A DNA stretch of 64,000 nucleotides, taken from a virus. Its lineage: Duplodnaviria; Heunggongvirae; Uroviricota; Caudoviricetes. The notes under the pieces are model-generated. The model saw only the letters and a program-made list of their open reading frames with translations, made no database searches and was not told where the DNA came from. The position numbers were made by a program, and so were the translations under genes. The stretch covers positions 30,417-94,416 of the IMG/VR virus record IMGVR_UViG_3300034072_002212, one strand, 5' to 3'. Below, in pieces: positions 16,287 through 38,195 of the stretch (its first letter is position 1; every line of letters begins with the position of its first letter).

Positions 16287-16523
16287 TTATCGGCTTTGGA
16301 GTTTCAGATACATGGCATAGCGGCGCTCGATCTTTTCGATCGCCTCGAGGTAGGGCTTTGCCGCTTCCTCCGCCGCAGCCTTTTTGGCGGCGTTCATTTC
16401 CAGCTTGAGTGTCTGGATTTGATCCCACATGGCCGTGATGGCCGAACCCTCGCTCAGAATCTCCTGTTCGGTGGACTCTGTGCTCTTCATCAGTTGCTTG
16501 CGGATATCCGCCAGAATGCTCAT
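16287..16523 (-). CDS. Small coiled-coil protein (78 aa)
   Basis: Ala/Glu/Lys-rich helical sequence. Translationally coupled to its upstream gene. Confidence 0.4.
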   Translation of the reverse strand: MSILADIRKQLMKSTESTEQEILSEGSAITAMWDQIQTLKLEMNAAKKAAAEEAAKPYLEAIEKIERRYAMYLKLQSR

Positions 16524-18372: not shown

Positions 18373-18912
18373 TTAGCCGTAATAAACAGCCGAGTTCGCA
18401 CCATGCTCAAAGCACTCAACAGACACGAGGCGCACGTCTGGGTTCACATTGTAGCGACCCAGCTTGCCGGCCTTCATCTCTTCCAGCATCTCGACGCTCT
18501 TCTCGTAAACGAGCTTCGCGGTCAGCTCACAGCCAACGCCGGGAACGATGCGGAGATTACAGACGCGGCCTTCCTCATAGAGACCAACTTCCTTCTCAGT
18601 GGGCACGCCATTGAGTTCTGGGTTCAGCGAGAACGCTGCTAGGGTCTTGAAGGTTTCGAGTGCGGGATCATCCTCGGCCACCAGGATCGTGTGGTCGAAC
18701 ATATGGTCGAGGAAGTTCTTGATGGGCTTCATACCACCAAAGTCAAAGCACCAGTTCTTCTCGTCCAGAGTCTCAGACTCCCAGACAAACTTGAAACCCA
18801 GGCTATAGCCGTGGAGCGTTGAACAGTGCGAGTGATTGGCCTTCCACTGACGGAAGCAGCAAGAGAGACCACGGTCGGTGCCGTAGGTCTTGGTCGATTG
18901 GAATTTAGGCAT
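18373..18912 (-). CDS. queD: 6-pyruvoyl-tetrahydropterin synthase / QueD-family protein
   Basis: FRQWKANHSHCSTLHGYSLGF and DFGGMKPIKNFLDHMFDHTIL parallel the QueD zinc and catalytic motifs (AAHRL..C..LHGHS; DFAELK...LDHHYL). Confidence 0.6.
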   Translation of the reverse strand: MPKFQSTKTYGTDRGLSCCFRQWKANHSHCSTLHGYSLGFKFVWESETLDEKNWCFDFGGMKPIKNFLDHMFDHTILVAEDDPALETFKTLAAFSLNPELNGVPTEKEVGLYEEGRVCNLRIVPGVGCELTAKLVYEKSVEMLEEMKAGKLGRYNVNPDVRLVSVECFEHGANSAVYYG

Positions 18913-18969: not shown

Positions 18970-19419
18970 TTGCTATTTATCTACGATATTCTGGTTATTG
19001 CCCGCAATATAGACATCACCAGAATGTCACTCTATATGGATCACATGACCCGAGGACTCACTAAGGAGGATAGCGAGCTATGGACTCGCGTAACCAAGGA
19101 CGTTAGGCCCCTTGGCAAAGCCCCTGTGAGCTCCTCTGAGGGTCAGAGCTACCCGAGAGCACCCGAACCCCGTAGCGCACCCTATAACCCACGAGTGGAC
19201 CTCCACGGGGTAACAATCCATGAAGCATGGGGTGTGGTCAACGACCACATCTATCATGGGGTACAGAACGGCTATAAGAAGCTGCTCATTATCACTGGCC
19301 GCTCAGGCCAGATCAACCAAGAACTTCCGCGCTGGCTTGAGCGCAACCCGCACGTCAGATCGGTTACACAGATGCCAAACGGTGGTTCATGGGAAATAGC
19401 AATCAAGCCCGTTACGTAG
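18970..19419 (+). CDS. Smr (small MutS-related) domain protein
   Basis: VDLHGVTIHEAWGVVNDHIY...LLIITGRSGQ...LPRWLERNPHVRSV matches the Smr core. The true start may be an internal Met (about 19024). Confidence 0.55.
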   Translation: MLFIYDILVIARNIDITRMSLYMDHMTRGLTKEDSELWTRVTKDVRPLGKAPVSSSEGQSYPRAPEPRSAPYNPRVDLHGVTIHEAWGVVNDHIYHGVQNGYKKLLIITGRSGQINQELPRWLERNPHVRSVTQMPNGGSWEIAIKPVT

Positions 19420-20581: not shown

Positions 20582-20865
20582 GCAAAGGTCAGCTTGAACA
20601 GAGCCGCAAGGTCTGCGCGATCCTTGGGAAAGAAGAACGTTGTGATGTCCGGCTCGTCTGAACTGTTGCTCGACAACACAGTGAGACCGTGGCGCTTGTA
20701 GAAGTCCTCAATCTCGGGACCTGCGACCCACTGGAAAGTGTCCTCCCCAGTGGATCGCTTCGTGAAGTGCGCCTTGCCCTTGATGTCTACACCCATGGAC
20801 TCAGCTTGCTTCTGTTTGATGCTCTCCCAGAGAGCTTCATAGGCCGAATGGCGAGGATCGGTCAT
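20578..20865 (-). CDS. FKLTWGG-family small protein
   Basis: W-box DTFQWVAGP. C-terminus FFPKDRADLAALFKLTFA. ATG overlaps the cca stop (TAATG). Confidence 0.5.
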   Translation of the reverse strand: MTDPRHSAYEALWESIKQKQAESMGVDIKGKAHFTKRSTGEDTFQWVAGPEIEDFYKRHGLTVLSSNSSDEPDITTFFFPKDRADLAALFKLTFA

Positions 20866-21998
20866 TACTCGATCTCCAGCAGTTCTTCCTTGGTCTTCGT
20901 GAAGCGCGAGAACACCCAGGCATTCTCCAGCTTACGCAGACGCTGCCCCATAGCCGGCCCCGGCTTCATCCCCGAAGCCAGCAGGTCCTTCCCCGTTACC
21001 GGGAACGTCGGGACCACAAAGTTGCGGGCGTATTCAGCCAGCATCGGTTCCCCGGCGATCTCCAGCATGGACACGACATGATCCAGAGGGAACTTGTCGC
21101 GGGTCAGGTAGATCTCGACCTTCTCCTCGGTCCAGTTCACGCACCGGTTGCGGATCAGGTTGCGGACCTTGGCCTCTTCGGCCGAGCTCAGCTTCCAGAA
21201 CTGGAAGAACTTTTCCTCGTCGGTACTGGCCACCAGCGTCGACAGTGCCGCGACCGCATCATCCGAACGCGCCAGCTCAACAGGGTTGAACCGGAAGACT
21301 CCCAGCGAACGGTTGACGCGCGTCTTGAACATCGCGTCGACCACCCGAACCCGAGCCGGCATCGAGGGATCCAGCAGCTTTGACATTTCCAGCCAGAACC
21401 GCTCGACCGACACGACGTTCAGCTTGTCCAGGGTCTCGCCCACGCTGAACAGGTCCAGCGTGTCGTCGTCCATGGTCGCATCGAAGCGCGCCGCAAAGCG
21501 GAAGTAGCGCAGGATACGCAGGTAGTCCTCCTGGATTCGCAGCTCTGCGATCCCGACGAAACGGACGACCTTGTTCTTCAGGTCATCGCGTCCGCCAAAG
21601 TAATCGTAGACGTTGCCCTCGAAGTCCATCGACATTGCGTTGATGGTCAGGTCGCGCCGCTCTGCGTCCAGCTCGAAGGAGCGGGTGAACTCCACGGTCG
21701 CATGACGCCCGTCGGTCTCTGCGTCGATCCGCAGCGTGGTGACCTCGAACGGCTCCTTGTTGACCACGATGGTCGCCGTGCCGTGTGCGATGCCGGTTTC
21801 GATGAAGCCGAACTTGTTGGCCGTTGCGATCTCGCGCATCTCTTCCGGCGTTGCGTCGGTGCAGAAGTCCACGTCCTTGGGGACCACGCCCAGGATCGCG
21901 TCACGGACACAGCCACCCACGAAGCGGATCTCGAAGCCGGCGGCCTTGAAGGCATCGCCCAGCTTGCGCGTTTCCGTGGTCATCAGCTTGTCCAGCAC
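20865..21998 (-). CDS. cca: tRNA nucleotidyltransferase (CCA-adding enzyme) / poly(A) polymerase family
   Basis: Head-domain motifs GGCVRDAILG...DVDF and 377 aa length. Confidence 0.8.
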   Translation of the reverse strand: MLDKLMTTETRKLGDAFKAAGFEIRFVGGCVRDAILGVVPKDVDFCTDATPEEMREIATANKFGFIETGIAHGTATIVVNKEPFEVTTLRIDAETDGRHATVEFTRSFELDAERRDLTINAMSMDFEGNVYDYFGGRDDLKNKVVRFVGIAELRIQEDYLRILRYFRFAARFDATMDDDTLDLFSVGETLDKLNVVSVERFWLEMSKLLDPSMPARVRVVDAMFKTRVNRSLGVFRFNPVELARSDDAVAALSTLVASTDEEKFFQFWKLSSAEEAKVRNLIRNRCVNWTEEKVEIYLTRDKFPLDHVVSMLEIAGEPMLAEYARNFVVPTFPVTGKDLLASGMKPGPAMGQRLRKLENAWVFSRFTKTKEELLEIE

Positions 21999-25026: not shown

Positions 25027-25371
25027 TTAGTCTACGATGCGGACCTTTGATCCCTTGAGCTTGACCAGCTTGTCATAGACCTCTGGGCTTACATTTACGC
25101 ACCCGTTGGTAATGAACTTGCGGTCTTCTGCGTTGGGGCTCTGAAGCCTTTCCCGCCTGCGCTCTCTGGGTCTCAGCGTCCAGACCCGGTGTATGGCATA
25201 GACATACTTGTCATCCTCGTGGAACTGAAGCACATCGCCGCCATACCCTTGGGCCAGGACCATCCTCTGCTGGATCGTGAACTCTCCCTTGGGAGTGTTC
25301 CCTCCAACAAGTGCCGGGTGACACTGTTGGAGGAAACAGATCAGAGCCAGCTTGAGGTGGACCGTGATCAC
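25027..25371 (-). CDS. L,D-transpeptidase (YkuD-like) catalytic domain protein
   Basis: YAIHRVW...ITNGCVNVSPEVYDKL resembles the YkuD (H/S)xGC(I/V)R catalytic region. Start overlaps the upstream stop. Confidence 0.5.
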   Translation of the reverse strand: MITVHLKLALICFLQQCHPALVGGNTPKGEFTIQQRMVLAQGYGGDVLQFHEDDKYVYAIHRVWTLRPRERRRERLQSPNAEDRKFITNGCVNVSPEVYDKLVKLKGSKVRIVD

Positions 25372-27017
25372 TGGCGGATCGGCTTGGCCGGGACCTCCAC
25401 GATAGTGGGCTGGGGAACCAGCGTTCCGACCTGGCAGCTCACCAGCTGGATGTTGGTCACCAGGCGGGTGTTGGACGAGCTGTTGCCGAAGCCGCCCTGA
25501 CCCCAGTCACCGTTGCCCGAACCGCCACCGATTGCGATGTTGCCACCGCCCGAGATGCCGACCACAGTCGTGAACATCACGACCTGGTGCCCGAAGAGCT
25601 GGATCGAACCATCCGGGAGAACGACCCGACGGTAGTCCAGGATATTGCCCGACGCGTCGAGGAACGGAGCCAGGTCATACGTGAAGCCCTGATCGACCTT
25701 GCTGCGGGTGAAGATGCCCGAGCGGGTGCCGATGATCGGGGTGCGGATCACGCTCTGGAGTGGACCGCAAGCCAGGGTCTCCTTGATGATGTTGCCGATA
25801 GCAACATGCGAGGGCGGAGTTGCAGGCACGACCGGCGGGATGAAGATCACGCGCGAATTGTCCGTGTAGGACGACGAGCTGCGGTCGCTTGCATCGACCA
25901 TCGTGGTGTTGCCCTGGGCCGCATTGGTGCTGTTGTTGCCAGCATTGCTCTGCGTCGAACGGCTGTTGTTGCCGGCATTGCTCTGCGAGGTGTTGCCGGT
26001 GGTCAGAGCCGTGTTCTGCGAGTTGCGGTTGTCGGAGTTGCCCGAACCATTGTTGCTCGCCGAATTGCGGTTCTGATTGGCGCTCGAAGCGTCGACATTG
26101 TTGCGCTGGTCCGCGCTGTTGCGCTGATCGGCCGTGGTGTTGTTGGACACGTTGGTCCGCTGATCACCACCGGTCATGGACTGGTTGCCGCCGGTCAGCG
26201 TCTGGTCGCCACCGGTCACGCGGGTATCACCGCCGTAGATCGACGAGTCCACGCTCAGCTTGTTGCCCGAGCCATTGCCGTTGCCGACGTCACCGATTGC
26301 CTGGCCCATGGTGTTGCCACCCGAATTGGAGCCGCTGATCGACTTGGAATCGTTGTTGAAGTCGTTGCCCGAACCGTTGCCGTTGCCGCTGTTCGCACCA
26401 GCGCCGGCACCTGCGAGAAGACCCGCACCAGCACCTGCTCCGGCGCCCGCATACTGACCCGCATTCGCACCAGCGCCTGCGCCAGCATACTGGCCTGCGT
26501 TCTGGCCCGCATGGGTGCCCACGTTGCCGACGGTCGAGGACGAAGCCGAATTGCCCGAATGGCCGACCGAACCACCAGCTGCATTGCCGCCCTGACCGTA
26601 GCCTACGCCGAGGCCCAGACCGGTGCCGCCCGTAGCATGTCCGCCGGAAGCGTTCGAGTTGGCGCCTGCGTTCGAGTTGGAGTTGGCCGTGCCGCCGCCG
26701 CCACCCTGACCTCCGTGACCGGTTCCACCGGAACCACCATAGCCGGTCCCGCCGTTGCCACCGTAGCCAGTGCCACCGTGACCACCTGCTCCGCCCTGGC
26801 CGCCGTTACCACCATTGCCACCATTGTTGCCGGTGGAAGGAGTCGGCGTGGGCGTCGGCGAAGGGGTCGGTGTGCCGCAGCCGTTGGTCTGTTGGCCTAC
26901 GCCACAACCACCGTTGCCGCCACCATTGTTGCCGTTATTGCTACCCTTGTTCGTCGCAAGGGCTGGCGACGCGATCACGCTGAGCGCAACGGCCGCCAAA
27001 AGAAGACTGCGATTCAT
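25368..27017 (-). CDS. Secreted Gly/Asn/Ser/Ala-rich low-complexity protein with a structured C-terminal domain (549 aa)
   Basis: Signal peptide MNRSLLLAAVALSVIASPALA, a TPTPSPTPTPTPS linker, GGxGGxGY and AGQYAGAGAG repeats, and a ~150-aa non-repetitive C-terminus. Confidence 0.55.
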   Translation of the reverse strand: MNRSLLLAAVALSVIASPALATNKGSNNGNNGGGNGGCGVGQQTNGCGTPTPSPTPTPTPSTGNNGGNGGNGGQGGAGGHGGTGYGGNGGTGYGGSGGTGHGGQGGGGGTANSNSNAGANSNASGGHATGGTGLGLGVGYGQGGNAAGGSVGHSGNSASSSTVGNVGTHAGQNAGQYAGAGAGANAGQYAGAGAGAGAGLLAGAGAGANSGNGNGSGNDFNNDSKSISGSNSGGNTMGQAIGDVGNGNGSGNKLSVDSSIYGGDTRVTGGDQTLTGGNQSMTGGDQRTNVSNNTTADQRNSADQRNNVDASSANQNRNSASNNGSGNSDNRNSQNTALTTGNTSQSNAGNNSRSTQSNAGNNSTNAAQGNTTMVDASDRSSSSYTDNSRVIFIPPVVPATPPSHVAIGNIIKETLACGPLQSVIRTPIIGTRSGIFTRSKVDQGFTYDLAPFLDASGNILDYRRVVLPDGSIQLFGHQVVMFTTVVGISGGGNIAIGGGSGNGDWGQGGFGNSSSNTRLVTNIQLVSCQVGTLVPQPTIVEVPAKPIRQ

Positions 27018-27613: not shown

Positions 27614-28057
27614 TTAGGGGATCGCCAGACGCAGAAACATCGCCCGTTTGGGCGCCTTGGAAAGCGGTTCGTCAATCATAGTGCCAATCTGCTCCAGCAG
27701 ACCAGGAATGCCTTCCATGAGACTAGGTTGCTTGCTCAGAAGATCCATAGCGTTTTGGCGAAGATCAAACCAGTAGTTGGCACCTGGCTTGCTATATTCA
27801 CCTGGGCCGACTTTCAGGGCATCAACATACGCCACGAAGTAGAACACCATCTTCTCTTGCTTGTGAAGCAAGCAAAGGTCTTTGAGCGTCTGGCCCAAGC
27901 GAGTGCAGCTACGGGTTAGTCTTCCCCGTTCATAGGGAGTGACCTGATTACAGTCCACGAATTCATTTTGCGTGGCATCTTTATGACTGCGGGAGACGTT
28001 GCGGACCACCCGTAGATGCTTGATCACATCCTTGTAGAGGTCCGCTACATCGCTCAC
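27614..28057 (-). CDS. Hypothetical protein (147 aa)
   Basis: ORF only. Confidence 0.45.
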   Translation of the reverse strand: MSDVADLYKDVIKHLRVVRNVSRSHKDATQNEFVDCNQVTPYERGRLTRSCTRLGQTLKDLCLLHKQEKMVFYFVAYVDALKVGPGEYSKPGANYWFDLRQNAMDLLSKQPSLMEGIPGLLEQIGTMIDEPLSKAPKRAMFLRLAIP

Positions 28058-28620
28058 GCGGTGGGCAACCCGTCCGGGCCGATGCCGATGATCTCACCGC
28101 CCACAAACTTGACCCGGCCTAGCTTGTCCGTGCCAGCTTGTGCCCAGCGCATCCACCAGATGTCCTCACGAACTTGCGTGACAATTTCACCTAGCCAGTT
28201 GGTGCCCTGCCAGGTGTTGCGGTCCTGGGCCAGGGGATCGTTGGACGCGAGGCCAATACCCCAGATCTTGTCCCACGGGCTTGCTTCGACCAGCGTGGTG
28301 CCTCGGGTACCCATCAGCCATTTCATCGCCTCGTGGTTCTGCGTGAACTTGGCAAAGTTGGCGCGGTAGACATACACCTTGGCATTGGCTTCCCAGATCG
28401 CCTTGTCGAAGTTCTGAACCGTGCGACCGGCGGCTTTCTGAATCTTGGGATTGTCGGTCCCCATGATGATTGCCAGCGCGGCCTGGTCGTCGAACAGGAT
28501 AGCCTTCTGAGCCATCATATACTGCTCGGCGCAGTTATACTTCACCCCGTCGAGAATGAACTCGCTGGGAGCCCACTGGCTTGCCCAGCCGCCATAGAAG
28601 AACGTGAACTGCTCAGCCAT
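28054..28620 (-). CDS. NADAR domain protein (YbiA-like, DUF1768)
   Basis: FFYGGWASQW...AEQYMMAQKA...FAKFTQNHEAMKWLMGTRGTTLVEASPWDKIWGIG aligns along the length of E. coli YbiA (FYS...SEHYFQAQKF...LVEHTENDAYWGDG). Confidence 0.7.
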   Translation of the reverse strand: MAEQFTFFYGGWASQWAPSEFILDGVKYNCAEQYMMAQKAILFDDQAALAIIMGTDNPKIQKAAGRTVQNFDKAIWEANAKVYVYRANFAKFTQNHEAMKWLMGTRGTTLVEASPWDKIWGIGLASNDPLAQDRNTWQGTNWLGEIVTQVREDIWWMRWAQAGTDKLGRVKFVGGEIIGIGPDGLPTA

Positions 28621-29095
28621 TGGGGCACCATCCCTTGCGCGCGCCGCCCACGTAGGGTCGTGCGTAGCTTTGCATGATCAGGTCCTGCGCGAGGTTCCGA
28701 CCGTTGACGTAGACGTCTGCGTCCACGCGCCCGCCATACTTGTCCCATTTGAGATTGGTCAGGGTGACCTTGTTACCAGCCAGCCTGATCATGCGGGTTG
28801 TGTAGAGCTTGGCACCGGCAGCGTTGCGCTTCTCGAACTCGCACTTGCCGCGCATCTCAGGGGTGTCCACTCCACGCACCCGAACGCCAATGCGGCTCAA
28901 CTCGGGCGGCAGGCCATCCATGCGGATGTAGAAGGTGTCTCCATCATAGATATCCACTACATCGTAGGTATAGGAACGAGAAGTCTGGGCTTGTGCCTCA
29001 TAGTGGCAAGCCCCGAGGCTTAGGGCCGCTGCGGCCAGGAGAGTGGATAGAATCTTCATGTCCATATCGCTATAGGATAGGTGACCGGTTGTCAA
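28613..29095 (-). CDS. Secreted staphylococcal-nuclease (thermonuclease) family lipoprotein
   Basis: Lipobox LSLGAC. DGDTFYI...VRVRGVDTPE...DKYGGRVDADVYVNGRNLAQDL matches SNase catalytic motifs. Confidence 0.7.
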   Translation of the reverse strand: MTTGHLSYSDMDMKILSTLLAAAALSLGACHYEAQAQTSRSYTYDVVDIYDGDTFYIRMDGLPPELSRIGVRVRGVDTPEMRGKCEFEKRNAAGAKLYTTRMIRLAGNKVTLTNLKWDKYGGRVDADVYVNGRNLAQDLIMQSYARPYVGGARKGWCPNG

Positions 29096-29137: not shown

Positions 29138-30343
29138 TTAGCGAGCTGCCAGCTGAGCCTGCCGGTTGGCTGCGCTGAGCAGCGTTTCCTTGAGCTTCTG
29201 CTCGGCGCCCTGGAGCGCCACTTCGGCCGCAGCGCGCTTGGCCTTGCCCTGCTCCGCGAGGTCGATGCTCTCGTTGATCGTCGAGATCAGGTATTCGTTG
29301 GCCTCGACCGCCGCCTCGACGTCGAAGATACCACGCTCCATTTCCGTCCGGGTGATCCGGTTGGTCTCGTTGATCTGCTTCGCGCTGGCGACCAGCAGTT
29401 CGTTGGTGAAGTCGGTCGCGGCCTTGCTGGCCTTGCCGGCTTCCGCCGCGCGCCATGCGGCGATCTGAACCGCCATCGTGCGCTTCCAGAGGGGAACGGC
29501 CGTCAGGATCTGCGTCTGGATCTTCTCGGCCATGCCCTTGTCGTTGGCCTGGACGATGCGGATGCTGGGCAGCGCCTGGATGGTCACGTTGCGGGTCAGC
29601 AGCAGGTCAGCGCGCTTGCGCTCCAGCGAATCGCGCGCTTCGATCATGTCGCGCACTTCCTGGGTGTCGGCCATGTCCTGCGTCTCGTTGGCCTTTGCCT
29701 GGAGCCGCGGGATCTCGACGGTGTTGACCTCGTTGAGCAGCCACTCGACCGCCGCGATCTGCTCGTCGAGCGAATCCAGCAGGCCCAGCGTGGCCTCGTA
29801 TTGCTTGTCCAGCGCAACGATGTCCTTGAGCATCTGAACGCGATGACCCTCGAGCACGTTGGTCGACTTGATGATCTGCGCTTCGACCGTCTGATACTTG
29901 TCCAGGAACTTCTGGAGAACCGACGCGCCGCCGAACAGCTTCTTCAGGAAGCCAGGCTTCTTGCCCGCTGCCAGCTCACCAAAGTCCAGACCCTTCATGT
30001 CGCGCACCATCAGATTCAGCGCATCGCCGGCCGGACCCGTGTCCTTGGTGCGGACTCCCTGAAGCATCTGCTCCGAGACCTGAGTGGTCGCCTTCTGAGC
30101 TTCGACGCCGAAGGTGATGATCGACTGGCTGTCCTTGAGGTTGATCTTGCTGGCGAGCTCCTTGGCGCGCTCCGGCGAGATCTTGCGCGGCGCGCGTCCG
30201 GCGGCATTGTTGAGCGAGACGATTTCCTGCGAGCCGATCTCCGGCACGATCAGGGCATTGTCCGCCTGTGGGGTCGGGAGGAGTTCGCCGGTCAGAGACG
30301 GGGTTGCCGTCGCCGTGCCGACCTTGGTAGGATCAGTCGCCAT
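29138..30343 (-). CDS. TelA-like (toxic anion resistance / KlaB family) protein
   Basis: 401 aa, helical throughout, with a TelA-like organisation. An XpaC-like gene is adjacent, as in the Bacillus yaaN–xpaC operon. Confidence 0.55.
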   Translation of the reverse strand: MATDPTKVGTATATPSLTGELLPTPQADNALIVPEIGSQEIVSLNNAAGRAPRKISPERAKELASKINLKDSQSIITFGVEAQKATTQVSEQMLQGVRTKDTGPAGDALNLMVRDMKGLDFGELAAGKKPGFLKKLFGGASVLQKFLDKYQTVEAQIIKSTNVLEGHRVQMLKDIVALDKQYEATLGLLDSLDEQIAAVEWLLNEVNTVEIPRLQAKANETQDMADTQEVRDMIEARDSLERKRADLLLTRNVTIQALPSIRIVQANDKGMAEKIQTQILTAVPLWKRTMAVQIAAWRAAEAGKASKAATDFTNELLVASAKQINETNRITRTEMERGIFDVEAAVEANEYLISTINESIDLAEQGKAKRAAAEVALQGAEQKLKETLLSAANRQAQLAAR

Positions 30344-30348
30344 AGTGT

Positions 30349-31008
30349 TCAGATTCCCTCGTTCTGGAGACGGTTGTTCATGACCGTCATGTTCACGTCA
30401 AAATCCATGACGTCGTTGGACAGAAGCTTGTCGAGCAGCTTCTGAAAGTTGATCTCGATGGTGTCGAGCATTTCGTCGAACTTGGCCATCTGCTTCTGCG
30501 CCTCGAGGCTGCGCGAACCAGTGCGGCTCAAATGCGCGTAACCCTTGACCAGCGTGATAGTCTCGTCCAGGTAGCTGTTGAGCCAGCTCTGTGCAAGGAC
30601 CACGTCCTTGGGGTCGACGTGGAAGTCTTCGATGATCTTGCGACCGATGGCATCAATGTGCTTGATGCGCCGAACCGTGTTGGGGCTCTTGATCTGGGCG
30701 GCTTCCATGAGGATGCGGTCCAGCTTGTCGCTGCCCATCTTGATTGCTTCGACGACCAGCTTGGTGTCAACACCCGAGGTGCCGGCCGCGATGTCGTCGA
30801 TATGCTTGTGAAGAGCGCGGATGTCGTCAGCCGTTACGGGCTTGCGACCAGGCCAGAAATACCAGATGCCCGATCCTGTGAGTAGCGCCAGCGGCGCGCT
30901 GATCAGGATATCACCGATGAAGCCCGTGGGCAGAGCGGCCATGCCGCCGATGAAAACACAAGCGGCTCCTCCCAGCGCAGCCGCCTTACTCACTAGACTA
31001 TTTGCCAT
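30349..31008 (-). CDS. XpaC-like membrane protein (tentative)
   Basis: N-terminal TM segments followed by a helical cytoplasmic domain. Positioned next to TelA as in the Bacillus yaaN–xpaC pair. Confidence 0.35.
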   Translation of the reverse strand: MANSLVSKAAALGGAACVFIGGMAALPTGFIGDILISAPLALLTGSGIWYFWPGRKPVTADDIRALHKHIDDIAAGTSGVDTKLVVEAIKMGSDKLDRILMEAAQIKSPNTVRRIKHIDAIGRKIIEDFHVDPKDVVLAQSWLNSYLDETITLVKGYAHLSRTGSRSLEAQKQMAKFDEMLDTIEINFQKLLDKLLSNDVMDFDVNMTVMNNRLQNEGI

Positions 31009-31129
31009 TGCTACCTCGTTGTTACAGAGCTCTGTATAGTCCTAATTGGACATCTGTCTACCACTCATTTGTTCAGAAAGGAAGGGCCACGGTTTCCCGC
31101 AGCCCTTCCCCTACGAAGCCCAGTGAGGG

Positions 31130-32869
31130 TTATTCAGCGTCGGGATGAATCCCTGCCAGCCGCTGAAGTTCCTCACGCTCGTCGGCCGGGAGAGGCTCGT
31201 CGCGCACCCGGCGGGGCTTGGGGGCCGGAACCGCCTTGGCCACCGGCGCATCACCGTTGCCGGTGATCGGAGCCGAAAGACCATCGACCACACCCGACAT
31301 GCCCTTGCTCAGGTCAATGCCAAGTTCCTTGGCCAGCTCGTCCACGAAGGGAGCCTGGAGCCGGTAGCCCAGCAGAGCGTCAGTCATCTGGCCGGGCAGA
31401 CCGTTACCGCCGTTTCCCGAGGTCTCGCCCTCCTCACCGCCGAAGGTGCGACCGCCACCGATGCCGCCGTTCATGTGAACAACGCGGAAGCTGTCAATCT
31501 TCTCGATGGGCTTGCCCATCTGCTCGAGGATCTCAGGCAGCTTGTCGATGAGCTTGAGGCGGATCTGCAGCGCAGCCTGCTCAGGGCTCATGAGGTTCGC
31601 AGCTTCGTTCAGCGCCCGCTGACCCTCGGCCTCAACCTCGTAACGACGTGCGTCTGCCTCGACTAGGCGCTCCTTGGCCTTGGCGCTGGCGTCAGCTGCC
31701 GCGAGCTCAGCTTCCGCACGGATGCGGATACCAGCGGCCTCTTCCTGTGCCTTGGTCTCGGCCGCGATGACCGCAACCTTCTGGTCACGCTGGGCGCGCG
31801 CTTCGGCCTCAACGGTCTTCACCGCTTCAGCAGCCGCGACCGCAGTCGCGCGGGCTTCGTCAGCCTTGGCACGAGCAGTCGACTCTTCCTCGGACTTCTG
31901 GGCGACCGCAATGCGCGATGCCTGTGCCGCAATCTCGAGAGCCTGTGCGGCCTCGGTCTCTGCGACCTGAATCCGGCGCTTCTGCTCGACACGCGCTGCC
32001 TCGGTGGCCTGGTTGGCCTCGATTTCAGCGATGTCAGCTTCGCGAGTGCGCTCAGCGCGGATCTTCGCAAGACTAGCAGCCTGCTCGGCGCGCTGGGTCT
32101 CGACCTGACGCTCCTGCTCCAGGGTTGCGAATTCGTCCTGCTGCTTGATTTCGAGCGAACGCTTGTTCGCCTCGAAGTTCTTCTGCTCGATGGCGACGCG
32201 GTTGTCGGCCTCGATTTCGTTGCGCTCCTTGCGGCGGGTCTCGGTCACGCTCGTGAGCTTAGCCAGACCTTCAGCGTCGAACGCATTGTTGGGGTTGAAG
32301 TGCTCGACCGACGTCTGGTCCAGACCGGTCAGCGAGACCGATTCCAGTTCCAGACCGTTCTTCTTCAGGTCTTCAGCCGCTGTGGTCTGGACCTGCTTCA
32401 CGAAGTCGGCCCGCTTCTCATGAAGGTCCTGCATGTCCATGCCCGCCGCAACAGCGCGCAGAACGTCGACGAACTTGCCTTCAATCAGCTCAGCGAGCTG
32501 CTGGGGGTTGGTCGTCCGCTTACCCAGGGTCTGCGCCGCTGCCGCGATGCTTTCCAGATCCGGCGACACACGAACGTAGAACTCAGCCTTCACGTCAACG
32601 CGCAGGCGGTCCTTGGTGATCAGCGAGTCCTTGGCCTTGCGATCGACGGTGAGGCGCAGGGTCTGCATATTGATGTCCACAGTCTCGTGGAACACCGGCA
32701 GAATCAGAGCACCGCCGTCCTTGACGACCTTCTGACCGCCCATACCCGTGCGGACGAATGCCATTTCCTTGGACGCTCGCTTATAAAGCTGCGTCATGAA
32801 GAAGACAATCACACCAAGGACGACAACCGCCCCCAGGATGATCGCCCCAATAAAGGTGAGATTATCCAA
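31130..32869 (-). CDS. Flotillin / band-7 (SPFH) protein, YqiK-like
   Basis: N-terminal TM, SPFH core (ILPVFHETVDINMQTLRLTVD...) and a very long A/E/K/R coiled coil. 579 aa. Confidence 0.75.
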   Translation of the reverse strand: MDNLTFIGAIILGAVVVLGVIVFFMTQLYKRASKEMAFVRTGMGGQKVVKDGGALILPVFHETVDINMQTLRLTVDRKAKDSLITKDRLRVDVKAEFYVRVSPDLESIAAAAQTLGKRTTNPQQLAELIEGKFVDVLRAVAAGMDMQDLHEKRADFVKQVQTTAAEDLKKNGLELESVSLTGLDQTSVEHFNPNNAFDAEGLAKLTSVTETRRKERNEIEADNRVAIEQKNFEANKRSLEIKQQDEFATLEQERQVETQRAEQAASLAKIRAERTREADIAEIEANQATEAARVEQKRRIQVAETEAAQALEIAAQASRIAVAQKSEEESTARAKADEARATAVAAAEAVKTVEAEARAQRDQKVAVIAAETKAQEEAAGIRIRAEAELAAADASAKAKERLVEADARRYEVEAEGQRALNEAANLMSPEQAALQIRLKLIDKLPEILEQMGKPIEKIDSFRVVHMNGGIGGGRTFGGEEGETSGNGGNGLPGQMTDALLGYRLQAPFVDELAKELGIDLSKGMSGVVDGLSAPITGNGDAPVAKAVPAPKPRRVRDEPLPADEREELQRLAGIHPDAE

Positions 32870-32891
32870 CTACTTTCTCCTGGTGATCTGT

Positions 32892-33551
32892 TTAGATCTT
32901 GCGAACGATGAATGCGTAAGCGCGTTCTCGGTGTGGACCGATTAGCACCACCTGTGAACCATTTGCAATACTTTCTTCTCCCTCCCCACAAACCATTACT
33001 GTGTGATCGGTTCCATGCGCGTCAGTAAAGCGCGCCATGCCAAAGTCCTCGCGGGCAATTGGACCAACAGTCACAACGCCGGCAGAACCCGTGAGACTCT
33101 CGAGGCTAACGGCATTCGACTCATCCTTGGGAAGGACGGGAGCGAGCCCCAGAGAACACAAACGAACGGTTGGAAGGGTGAGAGCGAGCACGATGGGCGC
33201 ACCAAAGAGCGCAGGCGCTAGGGAGCCCGTCAGTCCATCATAGATCCACTGAGCACTGTAGCCCAGGAGAGCAAAGCTGCCGCAGAATAGCGTGAGGAAG
33301 ATTGTGCTGGGCACATGGCCGGGATTGGCCCAACCGATGATACCAGCATGGCCGATTTCCAGATGATCTGGAATGCCGTTGCCGTTGAGGTCTAGGCTAA
33401 AATCAGCATGGCCATGGAGGGCATCAAAGCCAGCGCCCAGCGCCATTCCAATGATGCCGAAGAGGAGAAGGGCGAGAACCACACATCCTGAAATTAGGTA
33501 TGGGAGGTTGGGCCCGGCTGTAAGGAAATCCATGAGGCTCATAAGCCCCAC
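32892..33551 (-). CDS. NfeD/YqiJ-like membrane protein, partner of the flotillin gene
   Basis: Multiple TM helices plus a C-terminal OB-fold-like segment (GSAGVVTVGPIAR...ARFTDAHGTDHTVMV...GSQVVLIG). Lies immediately upstream of the flotillin gene. Confidence 0.55.
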   Translation of the reverse strand: MGLMSLMDFLTAGPNLPYLISGCVVLALLLFGIIGMALGAGFDALHGHADFSLDLNGNGIPDHLEIGHAGIIGWANPGHVPSTIFLTLFCGSFALLGYSAQWIYDGLTGSLAPALFGAPIVLALTLPTVRLCSLGLAPVLPKDESNAVSLESLTGSAGVVTVGPIAREDFGMARFTDAHGTDHTVMVCGEGEESIANGSQVVLIGPHRERAYAFIVRKI

Positions 33552-33588: not shown

Positions 33589-33891
33589 TCACTTTTCCTT
33601 GGGCTTTGATGCGTCTGCCAAACGAGCAAGGACCTGACCGTGGCAAGGAGCAGGGTGGCACCAGCAACCGAGGCGCTTTCCCTTGAGTTCGTGTAATGCT
33701 TCCATAAGGTGCTTTTGGTCCACGATCCATTCGGCAAATTGCTGAATGCATTCCTCGCGGGTGCCATCTTTACCAACTACGAAAGGATTGCCCCACTTGG
33801 TCTTGCGGTCAATACGAACGTCGTAGTGATCCTCTTTGAGGTTCACCACAGTGGTTCCAGGTGGGGGCCAGTGGAATAGATCGTCTGCCAT
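33589..33891 (-). CDS. Small Cys-rich protein (DUF4326-like, tentative)
   Basis: GNPF...LGCWCHPAPCHGQVL motif. The longer track ORF (to 34023) runs into the tRNA; an internal ATG at 33891 is proposed. Confidence 0.35.
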   Translation of the reverse strand: MADDLFHWPPPGTTVVNLKEDHYDVRIDRKTKWGNPFVVGKDGTREECIQQFAEWIVDQKHLMEALHELKGKRLGCWCHPAPCHGQVLARLADASKPKEK

Positions 33892-34103
33892 CGATCTACT
33901 TATCGGGCAGAACTTGCGGATGGGGGCTAGGCAGCTTGCGACCAATCCTAGCCCCCTACGTCCTGCAAAGAGGGGTAAGCACGACGCCTTCCACCGTTGT
34001 AAAGAACAATACGACGAAAGCAAGAGCTTTTGCGATGAGTTGTACTTTCACGTAGCCCCAGAACTCATGGAAACGGGTGGCAATCGGCCACCCGTTCGTC
34101 CTA

Positions 34104-34178
34104 TGGTGCTGTTGGGGAGGATTGAACTCCCGACTTCCTCATTACCAATGAGGTACTCTACCACTGAGTTACAACAGC
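34104..34178 (-). tRNA. tRNA-Thr (anticodon GGU), 75 nt with encoded CCA
   Basis: Folded by hand: acceptor GCTGTTG/CAACAGC, D-arm ACTC-AGTGGTA-GAGT, anticodon arm CCTCA-TTGGTAA-TGAGG, T-arm GGGAG-TTCAATC-CTCCC, discriminator A, CCA. Confidence 0.75.
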
Positions 34179-34194: not shown

Positions 34195-34222
34195 TGTATA
34201 GCACCAACACGCCTATTTATCA
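34195..34222 (-). promoter_or_regulatory. Sigma70-like promoter TTGATA-N16-TATACA upstream of tRNA-Thr
   Basis: -10 at 34200-34195 and -35 at 34222-34217 on the minus strand. Predicted start about 10 nt before the tRNA 5' end. Confidence 0.4.
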
Positions 34223-34582
34223 AAATAGATATACCATCTTTTTCAAATGGTCCTGCGCTTCCTGAGGGCGGTAGGGCTTCATGAGAACCTCCCAACCCGC
34301 ATAGCAATCATGAAGGGCATTGGAATCACTGCCTGAGCAAACGACTACATGGATGCCCATACCACGAAGCTTTTCAGCTACCGGCTGGCTAGTCCCGTCG
34401 TGAAGGTTCACGTCGAGGATCACCCCGGTGAGATTGGAACCATGCTTGTCGATAATCTCCAGGGCCTCACCGCTTGTCATTGCTATCCCTGCTATCTCGA
34501 TGTCAGCGAGGGCGCAAATGTCTTCCCATAGGAAGTGAAGCATCGGCTCGTCTTCTACGAGCAGGATTAGACCTTTGGTCAT
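34220..34582 (-). CDS. Single-domain response regulator (CheY-like receiver)
   Basis: LILLVEDEP...GVILDVNLHDG...KPY: the acidic pocket, phospho-acceptor Asp and conserved Lys are in their expected positions. Confidence 0.7.
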   Translation of the reverse strand: MTKGLILLVEDEPMLHFLWEDICALADIEIAGIAMTSGEALEIIDKHGSNLTGVILDVNLHDGTSQPVAEKLRGMGIHVVVCSGSDSNALHDCYAGWEVLMKPYRPQEAQDHLKKMVYLF

Positions 34583-35676: not shown

Positions 35677-37428
35677 CTAGCCATTCTTGGATGCGAGTTC
35701 GTTCACAACCATGTGATTGAGGTCAGAGATCCTGTAGGGCTTGCCTAGCACCTTGATCTTATGACTGCGGTCTCGCTTGAGCTCCCTAAGGGCCACTTCA
35801 GCATGACCTGTGGTGAAGATCACGGGTAAATCCGGACGGATATTGCTGGCAGCTTTGGCAAGCTGGAAACCATCAATGCCATTGGGCATCACAACGTCGG
35901 TGAACAATAGGTCAATGGGAATGTCGAGATTCTGAATGATCTCCAGTGCGCTTTTGCCATCTTGTGCGCTCAGGACATTGTAGCCCATTTCCATCAAAGC
36001 CTGCGCTGCGAGCTCTCTGACGCCGGGCTCGTCATCTACCACAAGAATGCTGGCCTTGGTAGCGTCGTAGTTGAAGTCTTCCTCGTCCCGCGTTTCTTCG
36101 ACCGTTTCTCCGGCTGTGTAGGGGAAGAGCATCTCTACGGTTGTTCCCTTGCCCAACACGCTGTCAATGAAGACCTTGCCGTTGCTCTGCTGACAGAAGC
36201 CATAGACCATGGAGAGACCAAGCCCACTACCCTTGCCCACGTCCTTGGTCGTGTAGAATGGTTCAAAGGCCCGTTCTTTGGTTTCCTGAGTCATGCCTTC
36301 GCCAGTATCACTGACGCTGACACTCACAAAGCGCGTGTCGTCAATGGAACGGTTTTGTGTCTTAATACAGATCCGACCACCATTGGGCATTGCGTCTCTG
36401 GCGTTGATGCCAAGGTTGAGAATAGCACTCTCGAGCTGTGATTTGTCGCTCAAGCAAAGCCAGACGTCTTCCTGGAGATCAATCTCAACAGGAATACTAA
36501 CACCGACCGCCCGCTGGACCATTTCCTGGACGCCAACGACGACCTCGTTGACGTTCAGTCGCTCGGGATGGAGTCGCGATTTACGAGAGAACGCAAGCAA
36601 TTGGCTCGTGAGCTTTTCTGCCTTGAGGGCGGCCTCGATCGCCATGGAAGTCTGACGTTCAATACGCTTTGCCACGGAGTTGTCTGGCAAGTTGGCCAGA
36701 CTCATCTTCGAGAGCTCGAGGTTCCCGATGATCACTGTGAGCATGTTGTTGAAATCGTGCGCGATACCACCGGTCAACTGCCCAACGCTCTCCATCTTTT
36801 GTGCCTGGCGGAGAGCATCCTGTGTTTTCTGCCGCTCTTCAATCTCTTGAAGGAGGCGCTCATTTGCTTCCTCGAGCTCTTGAGTGCGTTCGCGGACTTT
36901 GGTCTCTAGCAGTTCGTGAGCGTGGATAGATTCTTCCTGAGCCATTTTGAGCTCATGAATTATTGAAGCAACACCCAGCCATTTTACGAGGTTTTCGTTA
37001 TCATCCTTGATGGCTCGAGTGGTTGCACGGAACCAGCGATATTCTCCGTCATGTCGACGAATGCGAAACTCGGCTTCGTATGCTAACCCCTTGACATAAT
37101 GCTCTTCCATTGCCAGACGAATTACTGCTATATCGTCGGGATGAATGCATGTCTTCCAAAGATAATCATCATCAAGGGAGTATTTTACTCCCGTGAATTC
37201 AAACCAAAAATTATTGAGATAGGTGAGATTTCCCTGATCGTCTCGGGTCCAGATAATTGTCGGCGCAAGATCTGTGAGCATCTTGATATTGATGTCAGAT
37301 TTGATCGCCTTATCCACAAAACCCTCATCGCCCACTCCGCAGACAAGAAGACCTTGGGGTAATGGCCTACCTCCGGTCTGTCGCTTTGGCATCGAGAACC
37401 CCTTTAGAAGCGTAACGAATAGAACCAA
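35677..37428 (-). CDS. Hybrid sensor histidine kinase (PAS – HisKA – HATPase – receiver)
   Basis: H-box IAHDFNNMLTVI; ATPase DTGEGM...GSGLGLSMV; C-terminal receiver ILVVDDEP...DLLFTDVVMP. Uses a TAG stop. Confidence 0.8.
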   Translation of the reverse strand: MVLFVTLLKGFSMPKRQTGGRPLPQGLLVCGVGDEGFVDKAIKSDINIKMLTDLAPTIIWTRDDQGNLTYLNNFWFEFTGVKYSLDDDYLWKTCIHPDDIAVIRLAMEEHYVKGLAYEAEFRIRRHDGEYRWFRATTRAIKDDNENLVKWLGVASIIHELKMAQEESIHAHELLETKVRERTQELEEANERLLQEIEERQKTQDALRQAQKMESVGQLTGGIAHDFNNMLTVIIGNLELSKMSLANLPDNSVAKRIERQTSMAIEAALKAEKLTSQLLAFSRKSRLHPERLNVNEVVVGVQEMVQRAVGVSIPVEIDLQEDVWLCLSDKSQLESAILNLGINARDAMPNGGRICIKTQNRSIDDTRFVSVSVSDTGEGMTQETKERAFEPFYTTKDVGKGSGLGLSMVYGFCQQSNGKVFIDSVLGKGTTVEMLFPYTAGETVEETRDEEDFNYDATKASILVVDDEPGVRELAAQALMEMGYNVLSAQDGKSALEIIQNLDIPIDLLFTDVVMPNGIDGFQLAKAASNIRPDLPVIFTTGHAEVALRELKRDRSHKIKVLGKPYRISDLNHMVVNELASKNG

Positions 37429-37564: not shown

Positions 37565-37768
37565 TAAAGAAAGCTAAAAGGCCCGTCCTGTTCCGCGGTG
37601 GAGCCCATACCGGTTTGGCAAACCCTAAGGGTTAAGCCGCAACTGCCATTGCTGGCTCGTTGTCGTTGACATTTCTGTCGTTGGCCTTTTCGGATCCGAA
37701 GATCCCAGGGAACCACCCCTCGTTGTCTCTCGCAGCCGTTCGCGCACACGTCGATCCTGGTTCGGCCC
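37565..37768 (-). ncRNA. ssrA: tmRNA coding piece (5' acceptor strand, tag reading frame, post-stop helix)
   Basis: 5' end GGGGCCGAACCAGGAUCGACG at 37768. Resume codon GCC at 37684-37682. Tag stop UAA at 37633-37631, followed by the AACCC-UUA-GGGUU hairpin. Confidence 0.6.
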
Positions 37769-37815
37769 CTTGCTTCAGGATTGCTCCCGATAAGGTTTCC
37801 AGTATTGCCACCTGG

Positions 37816-37880
37816 TTGGTGGAGCCGGCGGGTACTGCCCCCGCGTCCGCTGATTGCTATTGAGCTTTGGTCATCAACAA
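37816..37880 (-). ncRNA. ssrA: tmRNA acceptor piece (T-arm + 3' acceptor strand + CCA)
   Basis: The 3' end ...GCGGG-GGCAGUA-CCCGC-CGGCUCC-A-CCA lies at 37816. The last 12 nt (CCGGCUCCACCA) match the E. coli tmRNA 3' terminus. Confidence 0.6.
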
Positions 37881-37887
37881 CCCCGCC

Positions 37888-37916
37888 TTTATAGCGCGCT
37901 CGTAACCAAATGTCAA
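37888..37916 (-). promoter_or_regulatory. Sigma70-like promoter TTGACA-N17-TATAAA(GG) driving the tmRNA locus
   Basis: -35 at 37916-37911 and -10 at 37893-37888 on the minus strand, immediately after the PAAR stop codon. Confidence 0.5.
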
Positions 37917-37919
37917 CAG

Positions 37920-38195
37920 CTATCCTACAAAAACGTCGCTGCTGCCTTGTGCAACCTTGCTACCACAGGCCACGGGGTCAGATAACCTGCCCTGTCCGCG
38001 TCCATTGACGAAGACTGTGGATGATCCCCTAGCCAAAACACTTGGATGACCACTATGTGGTGCCCATTTATCGCCTTGCCTGTGAGCCGGCTTGCCGTTG
38101 ATAAAGACGTCAGGGCTTCCCTGAACGTTTGGACGTGGAGGAGCGCCGGGATGGCCCGTGCATTTGTCTCCCATACGGGCCGCTGGCTTACCCAC
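37920..38195 (-). CDS. PAAR-repeat protein (spike-tip, T4 gp5.4-like)
   Basis: N-terminus (M)GKPAARMGDKC...HPG...VFINGKPAHRQGD...VFVNG are PAAR repeats. GTG start overlaps the upstream stop. Confidence 0.75.
   Translation of the reverse strand: MGKPAARMGDKCTGHPGAPPRPNVQGSPDVFINGKPAHRQGDKWAPHSGHPSVLARGSSTVFVNGRGQGRLSDPVACGSKVAQGSSDVFVG

What the first reader, a model, noticed from the sequence alone, without database searches (positions are those of the whole stretch)
28054..28620. Phage NADAR (YbiA-like) protein
The ORF aligns along its full length to E. coli YbiA (NADAR family; FFYGGW...AEQYMMAQKA...LVEASPWDKIWGIG). As I recall, NADAR proteins have been reported to reverse guanine ADP-ribosylation of DNA by DarT-type toxins. 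If so, a phage copy is a plausible counter-defence against DarTG-like abortive infection. It sits in a cassette with a secreted nuclease and membrane-stress proteins.
Basis: partly seen in the sequence, partly recalled or inferred. Interest (0 to 1): 0.6.

Follow-up and report, generated by a model that had tools for sequence, protein, structure and literature searches.

The report
Jumbo-phage NADAR ADP-ribose-removing enzyme
This gene in a giant phage encodes an intact NADAR enzyme, a kind that strips ADP-ribose off DNA or RNA bases and that other phages use to defeat the bacterial DarTG1 defence, so it is a real but fairly ordinary new example of something already described.

Summary
The ORF at 28054-28620 (-) is real and encodes a 188-aa NADAR protein (Pfam 3.7e-46). 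The AlphaFold2 model has pLDDT 97, and the only significant PDB fold matches are the two NADAR structures. All catalytic and ADP-ribose-binding residues mapped in PnNADAR are kept: E32, K39, K62, R66, W76, E112, D117, W120. The gene is under purifying selection. "YbiA-like" holds only in the older, broad sense. The protein is closer to PnNADAR and to AdfN-Bas60, a phage NADAR shown experimentally to neutralise DarT1, than to E. coli YbiA, and it is unrelated in sequence to T4 gp30.3. The window is part of a ~468-kb jumbo phage related to Sinorhizobium phage Phosso and Agrobacterium phage Atu_ph07. The gene sits in a conserved block: DUF4326, YqiJ, flotillin, XpaC-like, TelA, exported SNase, NADAR, 147-aa ORF. 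The closest cellular homologues lie in NADAR-PARG-Macro operons, which favours ADP-ribose chemistry over riboflavin metabolism. Verdict: new member of a known kind, low to moderate interest. The physiological substrate is inferred, not shown.

The parts
28054..28620 (-). NADAR gene, 188 aa including the stop codon; no signal peptide, so presumably cytoplasmic
   Evidence: ORF list; Pfam NADAR 3.7e-46; AF2 pLDDT 97.1; Foldseek hits 8bau (TM 0.70) and 2b3w only; dN/dS 0.08-0.18 against relatives
28156..28590 (-). NADAR catalytic domain (aa 11-155) carrying E32, K39, K62, G65, R66, F71, W76, E112, D117 and W120
   Evidence: Pfam envelope; residue mapping onto PnNADAR E43/K50/K75/G78/R79/Y84/W89/E125/D130/W133; invariance in alignment A1
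28057..28155 (-). Clade-specific C-terminal tail (aa 156-188), predicted beta-hairpin at aa 170-180; function unknown
   Evidence: Present only in the closest relatives (P0002-P0007); pLDDT above 90; dN/dS 0.13-0.40
28613..29095 (-). Exported staphylococcal-nuclease homologue. Its stop overlaps the NADAR start by 8 nt. The real start is probably the internal ATG giving MKILSTLLAAAALSLGAC...
   Evidence: Pfam SNase 3.7e-6 and phrog_452 endonuclease 1.1e-13; signal-like N-termini and two conserved Cys in all relatives
27614..28057 (-). 147-aa all-helical ORF, GTG start overlapping the NADAR stop (GTGA); clade-restricted, function unknown
33589..34023 (-). DUF4326 protein at the head of the cassette (domain at aa 60-133; the true start is probably internal). 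The family has been predicted in the literature to process ADP-ribose derivatives and is often fused to NADAR, Macro or SLOG domains
   Evidence: PF14216 1.7e-28; Iyer et al. 2022 PMC9503650 and 2021 PMC7824862; conserved position in L001, L005 and L007
29138..33551 (-). Context only: membrane module of TelA (29138-30343), XpaC-like (30349-31008), flotillin/SPFH (31130-32869) and YqiJ (32892-33551). It is conserved without the NADAR in phage Phosso, so it is not obligatorily linked to the NADAR
   Evidence: Pfam hits; Phosso locus L010; raised GC shared by all relatives

Best explanation
The gene encodes a catalytically competent, cytoplasmic, stand-alone NADAR-family ADP-ribosyl N-glycohydrolase. 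It binds the ADP-ribose moiety through K39, K62, R66, F71, W76 and W120. Using E32 and E112 on either side of the distal ribose, it cleaves the N-glycosidic bond between ribose C1'' and an exocyclic nitrogen of a nucleobase. The expected substrates are guanine-N2, and probably also cytosine, in single-stranded DNA or RNA. The reaction releases ADP-ribose and restores the base. During infection of an alphaproteobacterial host, probably a Rhizobiaceae, it erases ADP-ribose marks that host ADP-ribosyltransferase toxins of the DarT1 type place on replicating phage DNA. It therefore acts as an orphan-antitoxin counter-defence like AdfN. What is shown: the fold, the conserved residues, the family placement and purifying selection. 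What is inferred: the enzymatic activity, the substrate and the in vivo role.
For: NADAR domain and fold. All PnNADAR ADP-ribose contacts and catalytic residues are conserved, and E32, K39, R66, W76, E112 and D117 are invariant in 56 sequences that include AdfN-Bas60 and YbiA. The nearest characterised relatives are PnNADAR, a guanine-ADPr hydrolase with a crystal structure bound to ADPr, and AdfN-Bas60 (bas60_0111; 79 bits, E 6e-23). AdfN-Bas60 neutralises DarT1 in cells and rescues three DarTG1-sensitive phages. Every NADAR family tested so far removes G-ADPr from DNA and RNA in vitro, and the 'NADAR' and YbiA families also remove C-ADPr. The gene is an orphan, with no DarT or other ART found among the scanned neighbours. 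The closest cellular homologues (53-56% identity) sit directly upstream of a microbial PARG and a Macro-domain gene in 24 Bacillota loci, which is an ADP-ribose-removal context and not a riboflavin one. A DUF4326 gene is in the same cassette. The Atu_ph07 NADAR lies near a macro-domain gene. Host plausibility: the relatives infect Sinorhizobium and Agrobacterium, the window carries an alpha-type tmRNA, and a DarT1-DarG1 pair from Sinorhizobium fredii has been characterised. Purifying selection: dN/dS 0.08-0.18.
Against: There are no biochemical or genetic data for this protein. In vitro activity does not predict in vivo protection: E. coli YbiA and T4 gp30.3 remove G-ADPr in vitro but do not rescue DarT1 toxicity when expressed alone. 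[quoted passage not shown] The protein has Glu, not the Asp of DarG1 antitoxins, at the E125-equivalent position. It passes the TIGR02464 cut-off, a model named for the riboflavin-intermediate N-glycosidase. The host is not known, and its DarT1 content was not examined.
Confidence: 0.55

Rival explanations
1. The enzyme's main substrates are soluble, low-molecular-weight ADP-ribose derivatives, not modified DNA. Candidates are cyclic ADPR variants with N-glycosidic ring closure made by host TIR/Thoeris-type or other NAD-consuming defences. It would work together with DUF4326, and elsewhere in the genome with Macro or Nudix enzymes, to destroy immune signals or toxic metabolites.
For: Comparative genomics by Iyer, Burroughs and Aravind argues that the very wide distribution of NADAR, Macro, SLOG and Nudix in large phages reflects action on diffusible ADPr derivatives. 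The same work finds DUF4326 repeatedly fused to these domains. A DUF4326 gene sits in the same conserved cassette. The high prevalence of phage NADARs (48% of large phages) fits a broad target.
Against: No NADAR has been shown to cleave a signalling nucleotide, and the literature search found no such report. All experimentally tested NADARs act on base-linked ADPr in nucleic acids. DUF4326 lies 5 kb away and is separated from the NADAR by a membrane module. That module persists in Phosso, where SNase and NADAR are absent from the corresponding locus.
Confidence: 0.2
2. It is an antidote or toggle for a phage-encoded ADP-ribosyltransferase, or a component of RNA repair. In this reading it removes ADP-ribose that the phage's own enzymes place on nucleic acids, analogous to the YarT-YbiA toxin-antitoxin pair.
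For: NADARs serve as antitoxins for DarT1 and for the unrelated ART YarT. In T4-like phages NADAR genes are co-expressed with phage ARTs, and NADARs have been linked to RNA-repair contexts. The window carries RNA-related genes: a CCA-adding enzyme, a tmRNA and a tRNA.
Against: No ART domain was detected in any scanned ORF of the window. The coupled 147-aa partner is an all-helical bundle, not an ART fold. Only 64 kb of a ~468-kb genome could be inspected, so an ART elsewhere cannot be excluded.
Confidence: 0.12
3. It is a metabolic housekeeping N-glycosidase like E. coli YbiA or plant COG3236. It would hydrolyse reactive riboflavin-pathway intermediates (the GTP cyclohydrolase II and RibD products), as implied by the database names 'GTP cyclohydrolase II' and 'ribA/ribD-fused protein'.
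For: TIGR02464 'riboflavin biosynthesis intermediates N-glycosidase' scores 148 bits, above its cut-off. Many homologues are auto-annotated this way.
Against: The protein is more distant from YbiA (45 bits) than from PnNADAR and AdfN-Bas60. No riboflavin genes were found among the scanned ORFs of the window. The closest cellular homologues neighbour PARG and Macro genes, not rib genes. The 'GTP cyclohydrolase II' labels are transferred from fusion proteins and do not apply to a stand-alone 188-aa NADAR. A lytic jumbo phage has no obvious need for riboflavin damage control.
Confidence: 0.06

Closest known systems
AdfN-Bas60 (bas60_0111, Escherichia phage PaulScherrer), a phage orphan NADAR that neutralises DarT1 (Johannesman et al. 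2025, PMC11825919)
   Same: Both are phage-encoded, stand-alone NADARs with no adjacent toxin. Similarity is significant over the whole domain (30% identity over 165 aa, 79 bits). They share the EQYMM..K, VEASP.D.I.GI and W.G.N.LG motifs and the Glu at the E125-equivalent position. Both belong to the non-YbiA, non-DarG1 branch.
   Different: Identity is only about 30%. AdfN-Bas60 has an N-terminal insertion (aa ~25-40) and Y in place of W120, and it lacks the C-terminal hairpin tail. The phage lineage, host and gene neighbourhood all differ. Activity has been demonstrated for AdfN-Bas60 only.
Phytophthora nicotianae NADAR (PDB 8BAU), archetype of the 'NADAR' family (Schuller et al. 2023, PMC11543638)
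   Same: It is the best solved-structure match by sequence (2.3e-14) and by fold (TM 0.70, E 1.6e-10). E43, K50, K75, G78, R79, W89, E125, D130 and W133 are all conserved, and Y84 is conservatively replaced by F71.
   Different: It is eukaryotic and 36% identical. D86, the proximal-ribose contact, is K73 here. The window protein also has an extra C-terminal hairpin.
E. coli YbiA (PDB 2B3W), riboflavin-intermediate N-glycosidase, also a weak G-ADPr and C-ADPr hydrolase
   Same: Same fold (TM 0.67-0.74), same Glu-type active site, and both pass TIGR02464.
   Different: It is more distant (27% identity, 45 bits). YbiA lacks the loop between the WGIG motif and the last helix. It lies in a LexA-regulated dinG-ybiB context. 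It does not protect against DarT1 in vivo.
DarG1 (BC4488-type NADAR antitoxin of DarTG1) and T4 gp30.3 / AdfN-T4
   Same: Same superfamily and the same reaction on guanine-ADPr. AdfN-T4 is also a phage counter-defence.
   Different: DarG1 has Asp and T4-type NADARs have His at the position of E112. DarG1 is encoded next to DarT1. Similarity to T4 gp30.3 is not significant (E 0.2). No DarG1 structure appeared among the significant fold matches.

Membership tests
NADAR superfamily (Pfam PF08719) | Sequence match to the family model above the curated threshold | tested here: met
   157.8 bits against a cut-off of 35.1, E 3.7e-46, nearly full profile coverage
NADAR superfamily (Pfam PF08719) | NADAR alpha+beta fold | tested here: met
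   AF2 pLDDT 97.1. The only significant PDB matches are 8bau (TM 0.70) and 2b3w (TM 0.67-0.74)
NADAR superfamily (Pfam PF08719) | Conserved catalytic Glu and phosphate-binding Lys (PnNADAR E43 and K50; E. coli C7 E88 and K95) | tested here: met
   E32 and K39 align with them and are invariant in 56 sequences
'NADAR' family in the narrow sense (PnNADAR, SCO5665, E. coli sigma70-linked NADAR; the branch nearest AdfN-Bas60) | Closer to members of this family than to the YbiA, DarG1 or T4-phage families | tested here: met
   PnNADAR 71 bits and AdfN-Bas60 79 bits, against YbiA 45 bits and T4 gp30.3 19 bits. PDB phmmer 2.3e-14 against 2.5e-4. No full four-family phylogeny was built, and SCO5665 and EcNADAR were not compared
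YbiA family in the broad sense of de Souza and Aravind | Glu at the PnNADAR E125-equivalent position (Asp in BC4488/DarG1, His in T4-type) | tested here: met
   E112 lies in the motif LVEASP
YbiA-type riboflavin N-glycosidase (narrow sense) | Association with riboflavin genes (fusion to or neighbourhood of RibA/RibD), or orthology to YbiA | tested here: not met
   No rib genes were found among about 60 scanned ORFs of the window. The nearest cellular homologues neighbour PARG and Macro genes. YbiA is not the closest relative. TIGR02464 is passed, but it is a domain-level model
DarG1 antitoxin (DarTG1) | Encoded next to a DarT1 toxin, with Asp at the catalytic position | tested here: not met
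   The neighbours are an SNase and a helical 147-aa ORF, with no DarT hit in Pfam or PADLOC. The residue is Glu, not Asp. The Lys equivalent to C7 K115 is present (K62)
AdfN (phage anti-DarT factor NADAR; defined by function) | Phage-encoded orphan NADAR with intact catalytic residues | tested here: met
   Phage context, orphan status, residues
AdfN (phage anti-DarT factor NADAR; defined by function) | Removes ADP-ribose from DarT1-modified DNA and restores phage replication on DarTG1 hosts | not testable with these tools
   This needs biochemistry and plaque assays. It has been shown only for AdfN-T4, AdfN-Bas32 and AdfN-Bas60
NADAR-containing anti-phage defence systems (NCBIfam DS32_2; PADLOC PDC-M42) | Match above the family cut-off, with the partner genes of the system adjacent | tested here: not met
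   NF053876 scores 32 bits against a cut-off of 240. PDC-M42C matches at domain level (2.7e-38), but no other PADLOC component was found among the neighbours

The most novel reading that the evidence does not exclude
The translationally coupled trio of exported SNase, NADAR with a clade-specific C-terminal hairpin, and a 147-aa helical ORFan forms a dedicated module. In it the small helical protein and/or the tail target the NADAR to a substrate other than DarT1-modified DNA. One candidate substrate is an N-glycosidically cyclised ADP-ribose immune signal, which would make this the first enzymatic NADAR-based anti-signalling counter-defence. Alternatively, they could act as the phage co-factor that AdfN-T4 is known to need.
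Probability: 0.1. Interest if true: 0.7.

Novelty: new member of a known kind. Interest (0 to 1): 0.25.

Why it matters
If the inference is right, it extends the AdfN orphan-antitoxin counter-defence from E. coli phages to ~470-kb jumbo phages of soil alphaproteobacteria. It also adds a well-behaved candidate (very confident model, complete active site) from the NADAR branch for which only one phage representative, AdfN-Bas60, has been tested. It corrects misleading database names such as 'GTP cyclohydrolase II' and 'riboflavin N-glycosidase'. The NADAR-PARG-Macro operons found among the closest cellular homologues are a useful pointer that this subfamily deals with ADP-ribose adducts. It does not open a new question, because the concept, the chemistry and the prevalence of NADARs in large phages are already in the literature.

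Tried and rejected
1. Megablast of 24-34 kb against 50,697 phage records gave no match, so the phage is known only from metagenomes. Distant blastn found only Phosso's SPFH gene and short NADAR segments.
2. The supplement of Johannesman 2025 (reference alignment and accessions) is not held. I rebuilt references from the Bas60, T4 and K-12 genome records instead. AdfN-Bas32, SCO5665 and the E. coli sigma70-linked NADAR were not retrieved.
4. Promoter and terminator scans over 26.9-34.6 kb gave counts at or below the shuffle expectation, so they say nothing about operon boundaries.
5. The idea that the raised-GC block was recently acquired from the host is rejected. The GC elevation is shared by all relatives, including Phosso. 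The nearest cellular NADARs are at most 60% identical and none is from Rhizobiaceae.
6. A functional link between the NADAR and the TelA/flotillin membrane module is not supported. Phosso keeps the module without SNase or NADAR at that locus.
7. A search for ART, Macro, Nudix, SLOG or sirtuin genes elsewhere in the window found none among about 60 ORFs scanned.
8. A literature search for NADAR action on Thoeris or TIR signals found no such report.

Full report
OBSERVATION. The three quoted motifs are all in the translation. It matches Pfam NADAR (PF08719) at E = 3.7e-46 (157.8 bits, cut-off 35.1) over residues 11-155 and almost the whole profile. It also matches TIGR02464 at 148 bits (cut-off 73.7) and phrog_1017 at 4.2e-45. 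An AlphaFold2 model built on 54 homologues has mean pLDDT 97.1. Its only significant matches among solved structures are the two NADAR structures, 8BAU (TM 0.70, E 1.6e-10) and 2B3W (TM 0.67-0.74).

WHAT GENOME THIS IS. The window carries topoisomerase II in two genes, class I ribonucleotide reductase, a DnaB-type helicase, a primase, a CCA-adding enzyme and virion proteins. The NADAR protein itself is recorded on a 468,011-bp metagenomic contig. The helicase is 69% identical to that of Sinorhizobium phage Phosso (469 kb) and 57% identical to that of Agrobacterium phage Atu_ph07 (490 kb). No phage record matches at the DNA level. An alphaproteobacterial-type permuted tmRNA at 37577-37920 fits an alphaproteobacterial host. 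So this is a jumbo phage of the Phosso/Atu_ph07 lineage, known only from metagenomes.

ANATOMY AND CONTEXT. All genes from about 20.8 to 37.4 kb read on the minus strand. The order upstream to downstream is:
- DUF4326 (33589-34023; PF14216 1.7e-28)
- YqiJ (32892-33551)
- flotillin/SPFH (31130-32869)
- an XpaC-like PF10112 protein (30349-31008)
- TelA (29138-30343)
- a staphylococcal-nuclease homologue (28613-29095)
- the NADAR (28054-28620)
- a 147-aa ORF (27614-28057)

The nuclease stop overlaps the NADAR start by 8 nt, and the NADAR stop overlaps the GTG start of the 147-aa ORF (GTGA). That suggests translational coupling of the three genes. The nuclease and its homologues in related contigs all begin with a hydrophobic signal-like segment and share two cysteines, so 'secreted nuclease' is a fair description. 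The NADAR has no such segment.

The whole block is conserved in related metagenomic jumbo-phage contigs, with NADAR identities of 68-86%. In the cultured relative Phosso the four membrane genes are present in the same order, but SNase, NADAR and the 147-aa ORF are absent from that locus. Atu_ph07 has a NADAR elsewhere, 37% identical, lying 1.7 kb from a macro-domain gene. The NADAR is therefore a movable sub-module and not an obligate partner of the TelA/flotillin genes. The raised GC of the block (0.59-0.62 against about 0.52-0.54) is shared by all relatives including Phosso, so it is old. It does not indicate recent capture.

ACTIVE SITE. I used the 8BAU alignment and the residue roles in Schuller et al. 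2023. The PnNADAR residues that bind ADP-ribose or catalyse hydrolysis map as follows:
- E43 = E32
- K50 = K39
- K75 = K62
- G78 = G65
- R79 = R66
- Y84 = F71
- W89 = W76
- E125 = E112
- D130 = D117
- W133 = W120
- D86 is the only change (K73 here).

In a 56-sequence alignment that includes AdfN-Bas60 and E. coli YbiA, E32, K39, G65, R66, W76, E112 and D117 are invariant. The domain is under purifying selection (dN/dS 0.08-0.18 against three relatives; dS is near saturation).

WHICH NADAR FAMILY. The older two-way classification separates a YbiA family (Glu at the E125 position) from the BC4488/DarG1 family (Asp), with His in T4-type phage proteins. The current four-family scheme has NADAR, YbiA-type, phage (T4) and DarG1 families. 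Under it the protein falls with the 'NADAR' family. It scores 71 bits against PnNADAR and 79 bits (E 6e-23, 30% over 165 aa) against the Bas60 NADAR. It scores only 45 bits against YbiA and nothing significant against T4 gp30.3. The Bas60 protein (bas60_0111) is the only NADAR in that genome, so it is AdfN-Bas60. Johannesman et al. showed that AdfN-Bas60 neutralises DarT1 on its own and restores plating of three DarTG1-sensitive phages. They placed it with non-YbiA, non-DarG1 bacterial NADARs.

EVIDENCE FROM CELLULAR RELATIVES. A scan of one genome per bacterial and archaeal species found homologues of at most 60% identity. They occur in Microscilla, Paenibacillus, Myxococcota, Planctomycetota, Sphingomonadaceae and others, with none in Rhizobiaceae. 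The gene was therefore not recently taken from the host. Clustering the neighbours of the 80 best loci showed one conserved partner. In 24 Bacillota loci the NADAR is followed, after a median of 23 bp, by a microbial-type PARG (PF10021, 2.5e-52). In 9 of those loci a Macro-domain protein follows as well. PARG and Macro enzymes remove ADP-ribose from other linkages. This operon argues that the subfamily works on ADP-ribose adducts, not on riboflavin intermediates.

MECHANISM PROPOSED. The enzyme holds the ADP-ribose diphosphate with K39, R66, W76 and W120, stacks the adenine on F71, and places the distal ribose between E32 and E112. It then hydrolyses the C1''-N bond to a nucleobase. By analogy with every NADAR tested, the substrate is N2-ADP-ribosyl-guanine in ssDNA or RNA. 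By analogy with 'NADAR' and YbiA family members, ADP-ribosyl-cytosine is also likely. In infection this would undo DarT1-type modification of replicating phage DNA. A DarT1-DarG1 pair from Sinorhizobium fredii has been characterised, so the threat exists in the likely host group. I put this at 0.55.

The rivals are:
- Destruction of soluble ADP-ribose-derived signals or toxins together with DUF4326, as Iyer, Burroughs and Aravind proposed for phage NADARs in general: 0.2.
- Antidote to a phage-encoded ART, or RNA repair: 0.12. No ART was found in the window, but only 14% of the genome was visible.
- A riboflavin housekeeping N-glycosidase: 0.06.

UNRESOLVED DETAILS. The last 33 residues form a confidently predicted beta-hairpin (aa 170-180) found only in the closest relatives. 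It is under moderate constraint (dN/dS 0.13-0.40). The coupled 147-aa ORF is restricted to this phage clade (8 clusters) and folds as a helical bundle with no informative structural neighbour. AdfN-T4 requires an unidentified phage factor to work. A co-factor role for one of these elements is therefore conceivable but untested.

NOVELTY AND VERDICT. [quoted passage not shown] Their guanine de-ADP-ribosylase activity was established in 2023, and their use by phages against DarTG1 in 2025. This gene is a new, well-preserved member of that known kind in a little-studied jumbo-phage lineage. Interest is 0.25. The label should read 'NADAR family ADP-ribosyl-nucleobase glycohydrolase, AdfN-like (predicted)', not 'YbiA' or 'GTP cyclohydrolase II'.

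Noticed in passing
window 37577-37920 (-): A permuted, alphaproteobacterial-type tmRNA is encoded by the phage (Rfam RF01849 84.3 bits, RF04321 84.7 bits). ARAGORN did not report it. It supports an alphaproteobacterial host.
   Followed up: partly
window 29138-33551 (-): A membrane module of YqiJ, flotillin/SPFH (YqiK-like), an XpaC-like PF10112 protein and TelA. It is conserved in order in related contigs and in Sinorhizobium phage Phosso, and its GC is 5-6 points above the flanks in all of them. The literature suggests phage TelA may act in superinfection exclusion.
   Followed up: partly
window 33589-34023 (-): A DUF4326 protein (PF14216 1.7e-28) sits at the head of the cassette, next to tRNA-Thr(GGT) at 34104-34178. 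The family is predicted to process ADP-ribose-derived phosphates and is often fused to NADAR, Macro or SLOG domains.
   Followed up: partly
window 3756-4286 (-), 16520-16975 (-), 20865-21998 (-): Phage-encoded translation parts: a full IF3 (IF3_N plus IF3_C), an L7/L12-like protein and a CCA-adding enzyme.
   Followed up: no
window 35677-37428 (-), 34220-34582 (-): Phage-encoded two-component signalling parts: a PAS-HisKA-HATPase-receiver hybrid kinase and a single receiver-domain protein. Both are conserved upstream of the cassette in related contigs.
   Followed up: no
window 25027-27017 (-): A 549-aa Gly/Asn/Ser-rich low-complexity protein with an N-terminal signal-like segment (25368-27017) overlaps the start of a 114-aa YkuD-like ORF (phrog_38499 6.9e-48; weak L,D-transpeptidase hit).
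   Followed up: no
window 7246-7668 (-), 18373-18912 (-), 18970-19419 (+): An S-adenosylmethionine decarboxylase homologue, a PTPS/QueD-like protein (possible link to 7-deazaguanine or pterin chemistry) and an Smr-domain protein.
   Followed up: no
window 8309-10180 (+) and 13642-14994 (+): The two topoisomerase II subunit genes are separated by about 3.4 kb of small plus-strand ORFs (78-156 aa) with no family matches.
   Followed up: partly
L033 4001-6070, and 23 other Bacillota loci among L019-L087: There is a conserved NADAR - microbial PARG (PF10021) - Macro gene arrangement in Paenibacillus and related Bacillota. It looks like a candidate multi-linkage ADP-ribose-removal operon. I did not find it described in the papers I read.
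   Followed up: partly
L097 4998-7717 (Atu_ph07): The Atu_ph07 NADAR (ASV44752.1, 37% identical to the window protein) lies 1.7 kb from a macro-domain gene annotated as ADP-ribose 1''-phosphate phosphatase-related.
   Followed up: no
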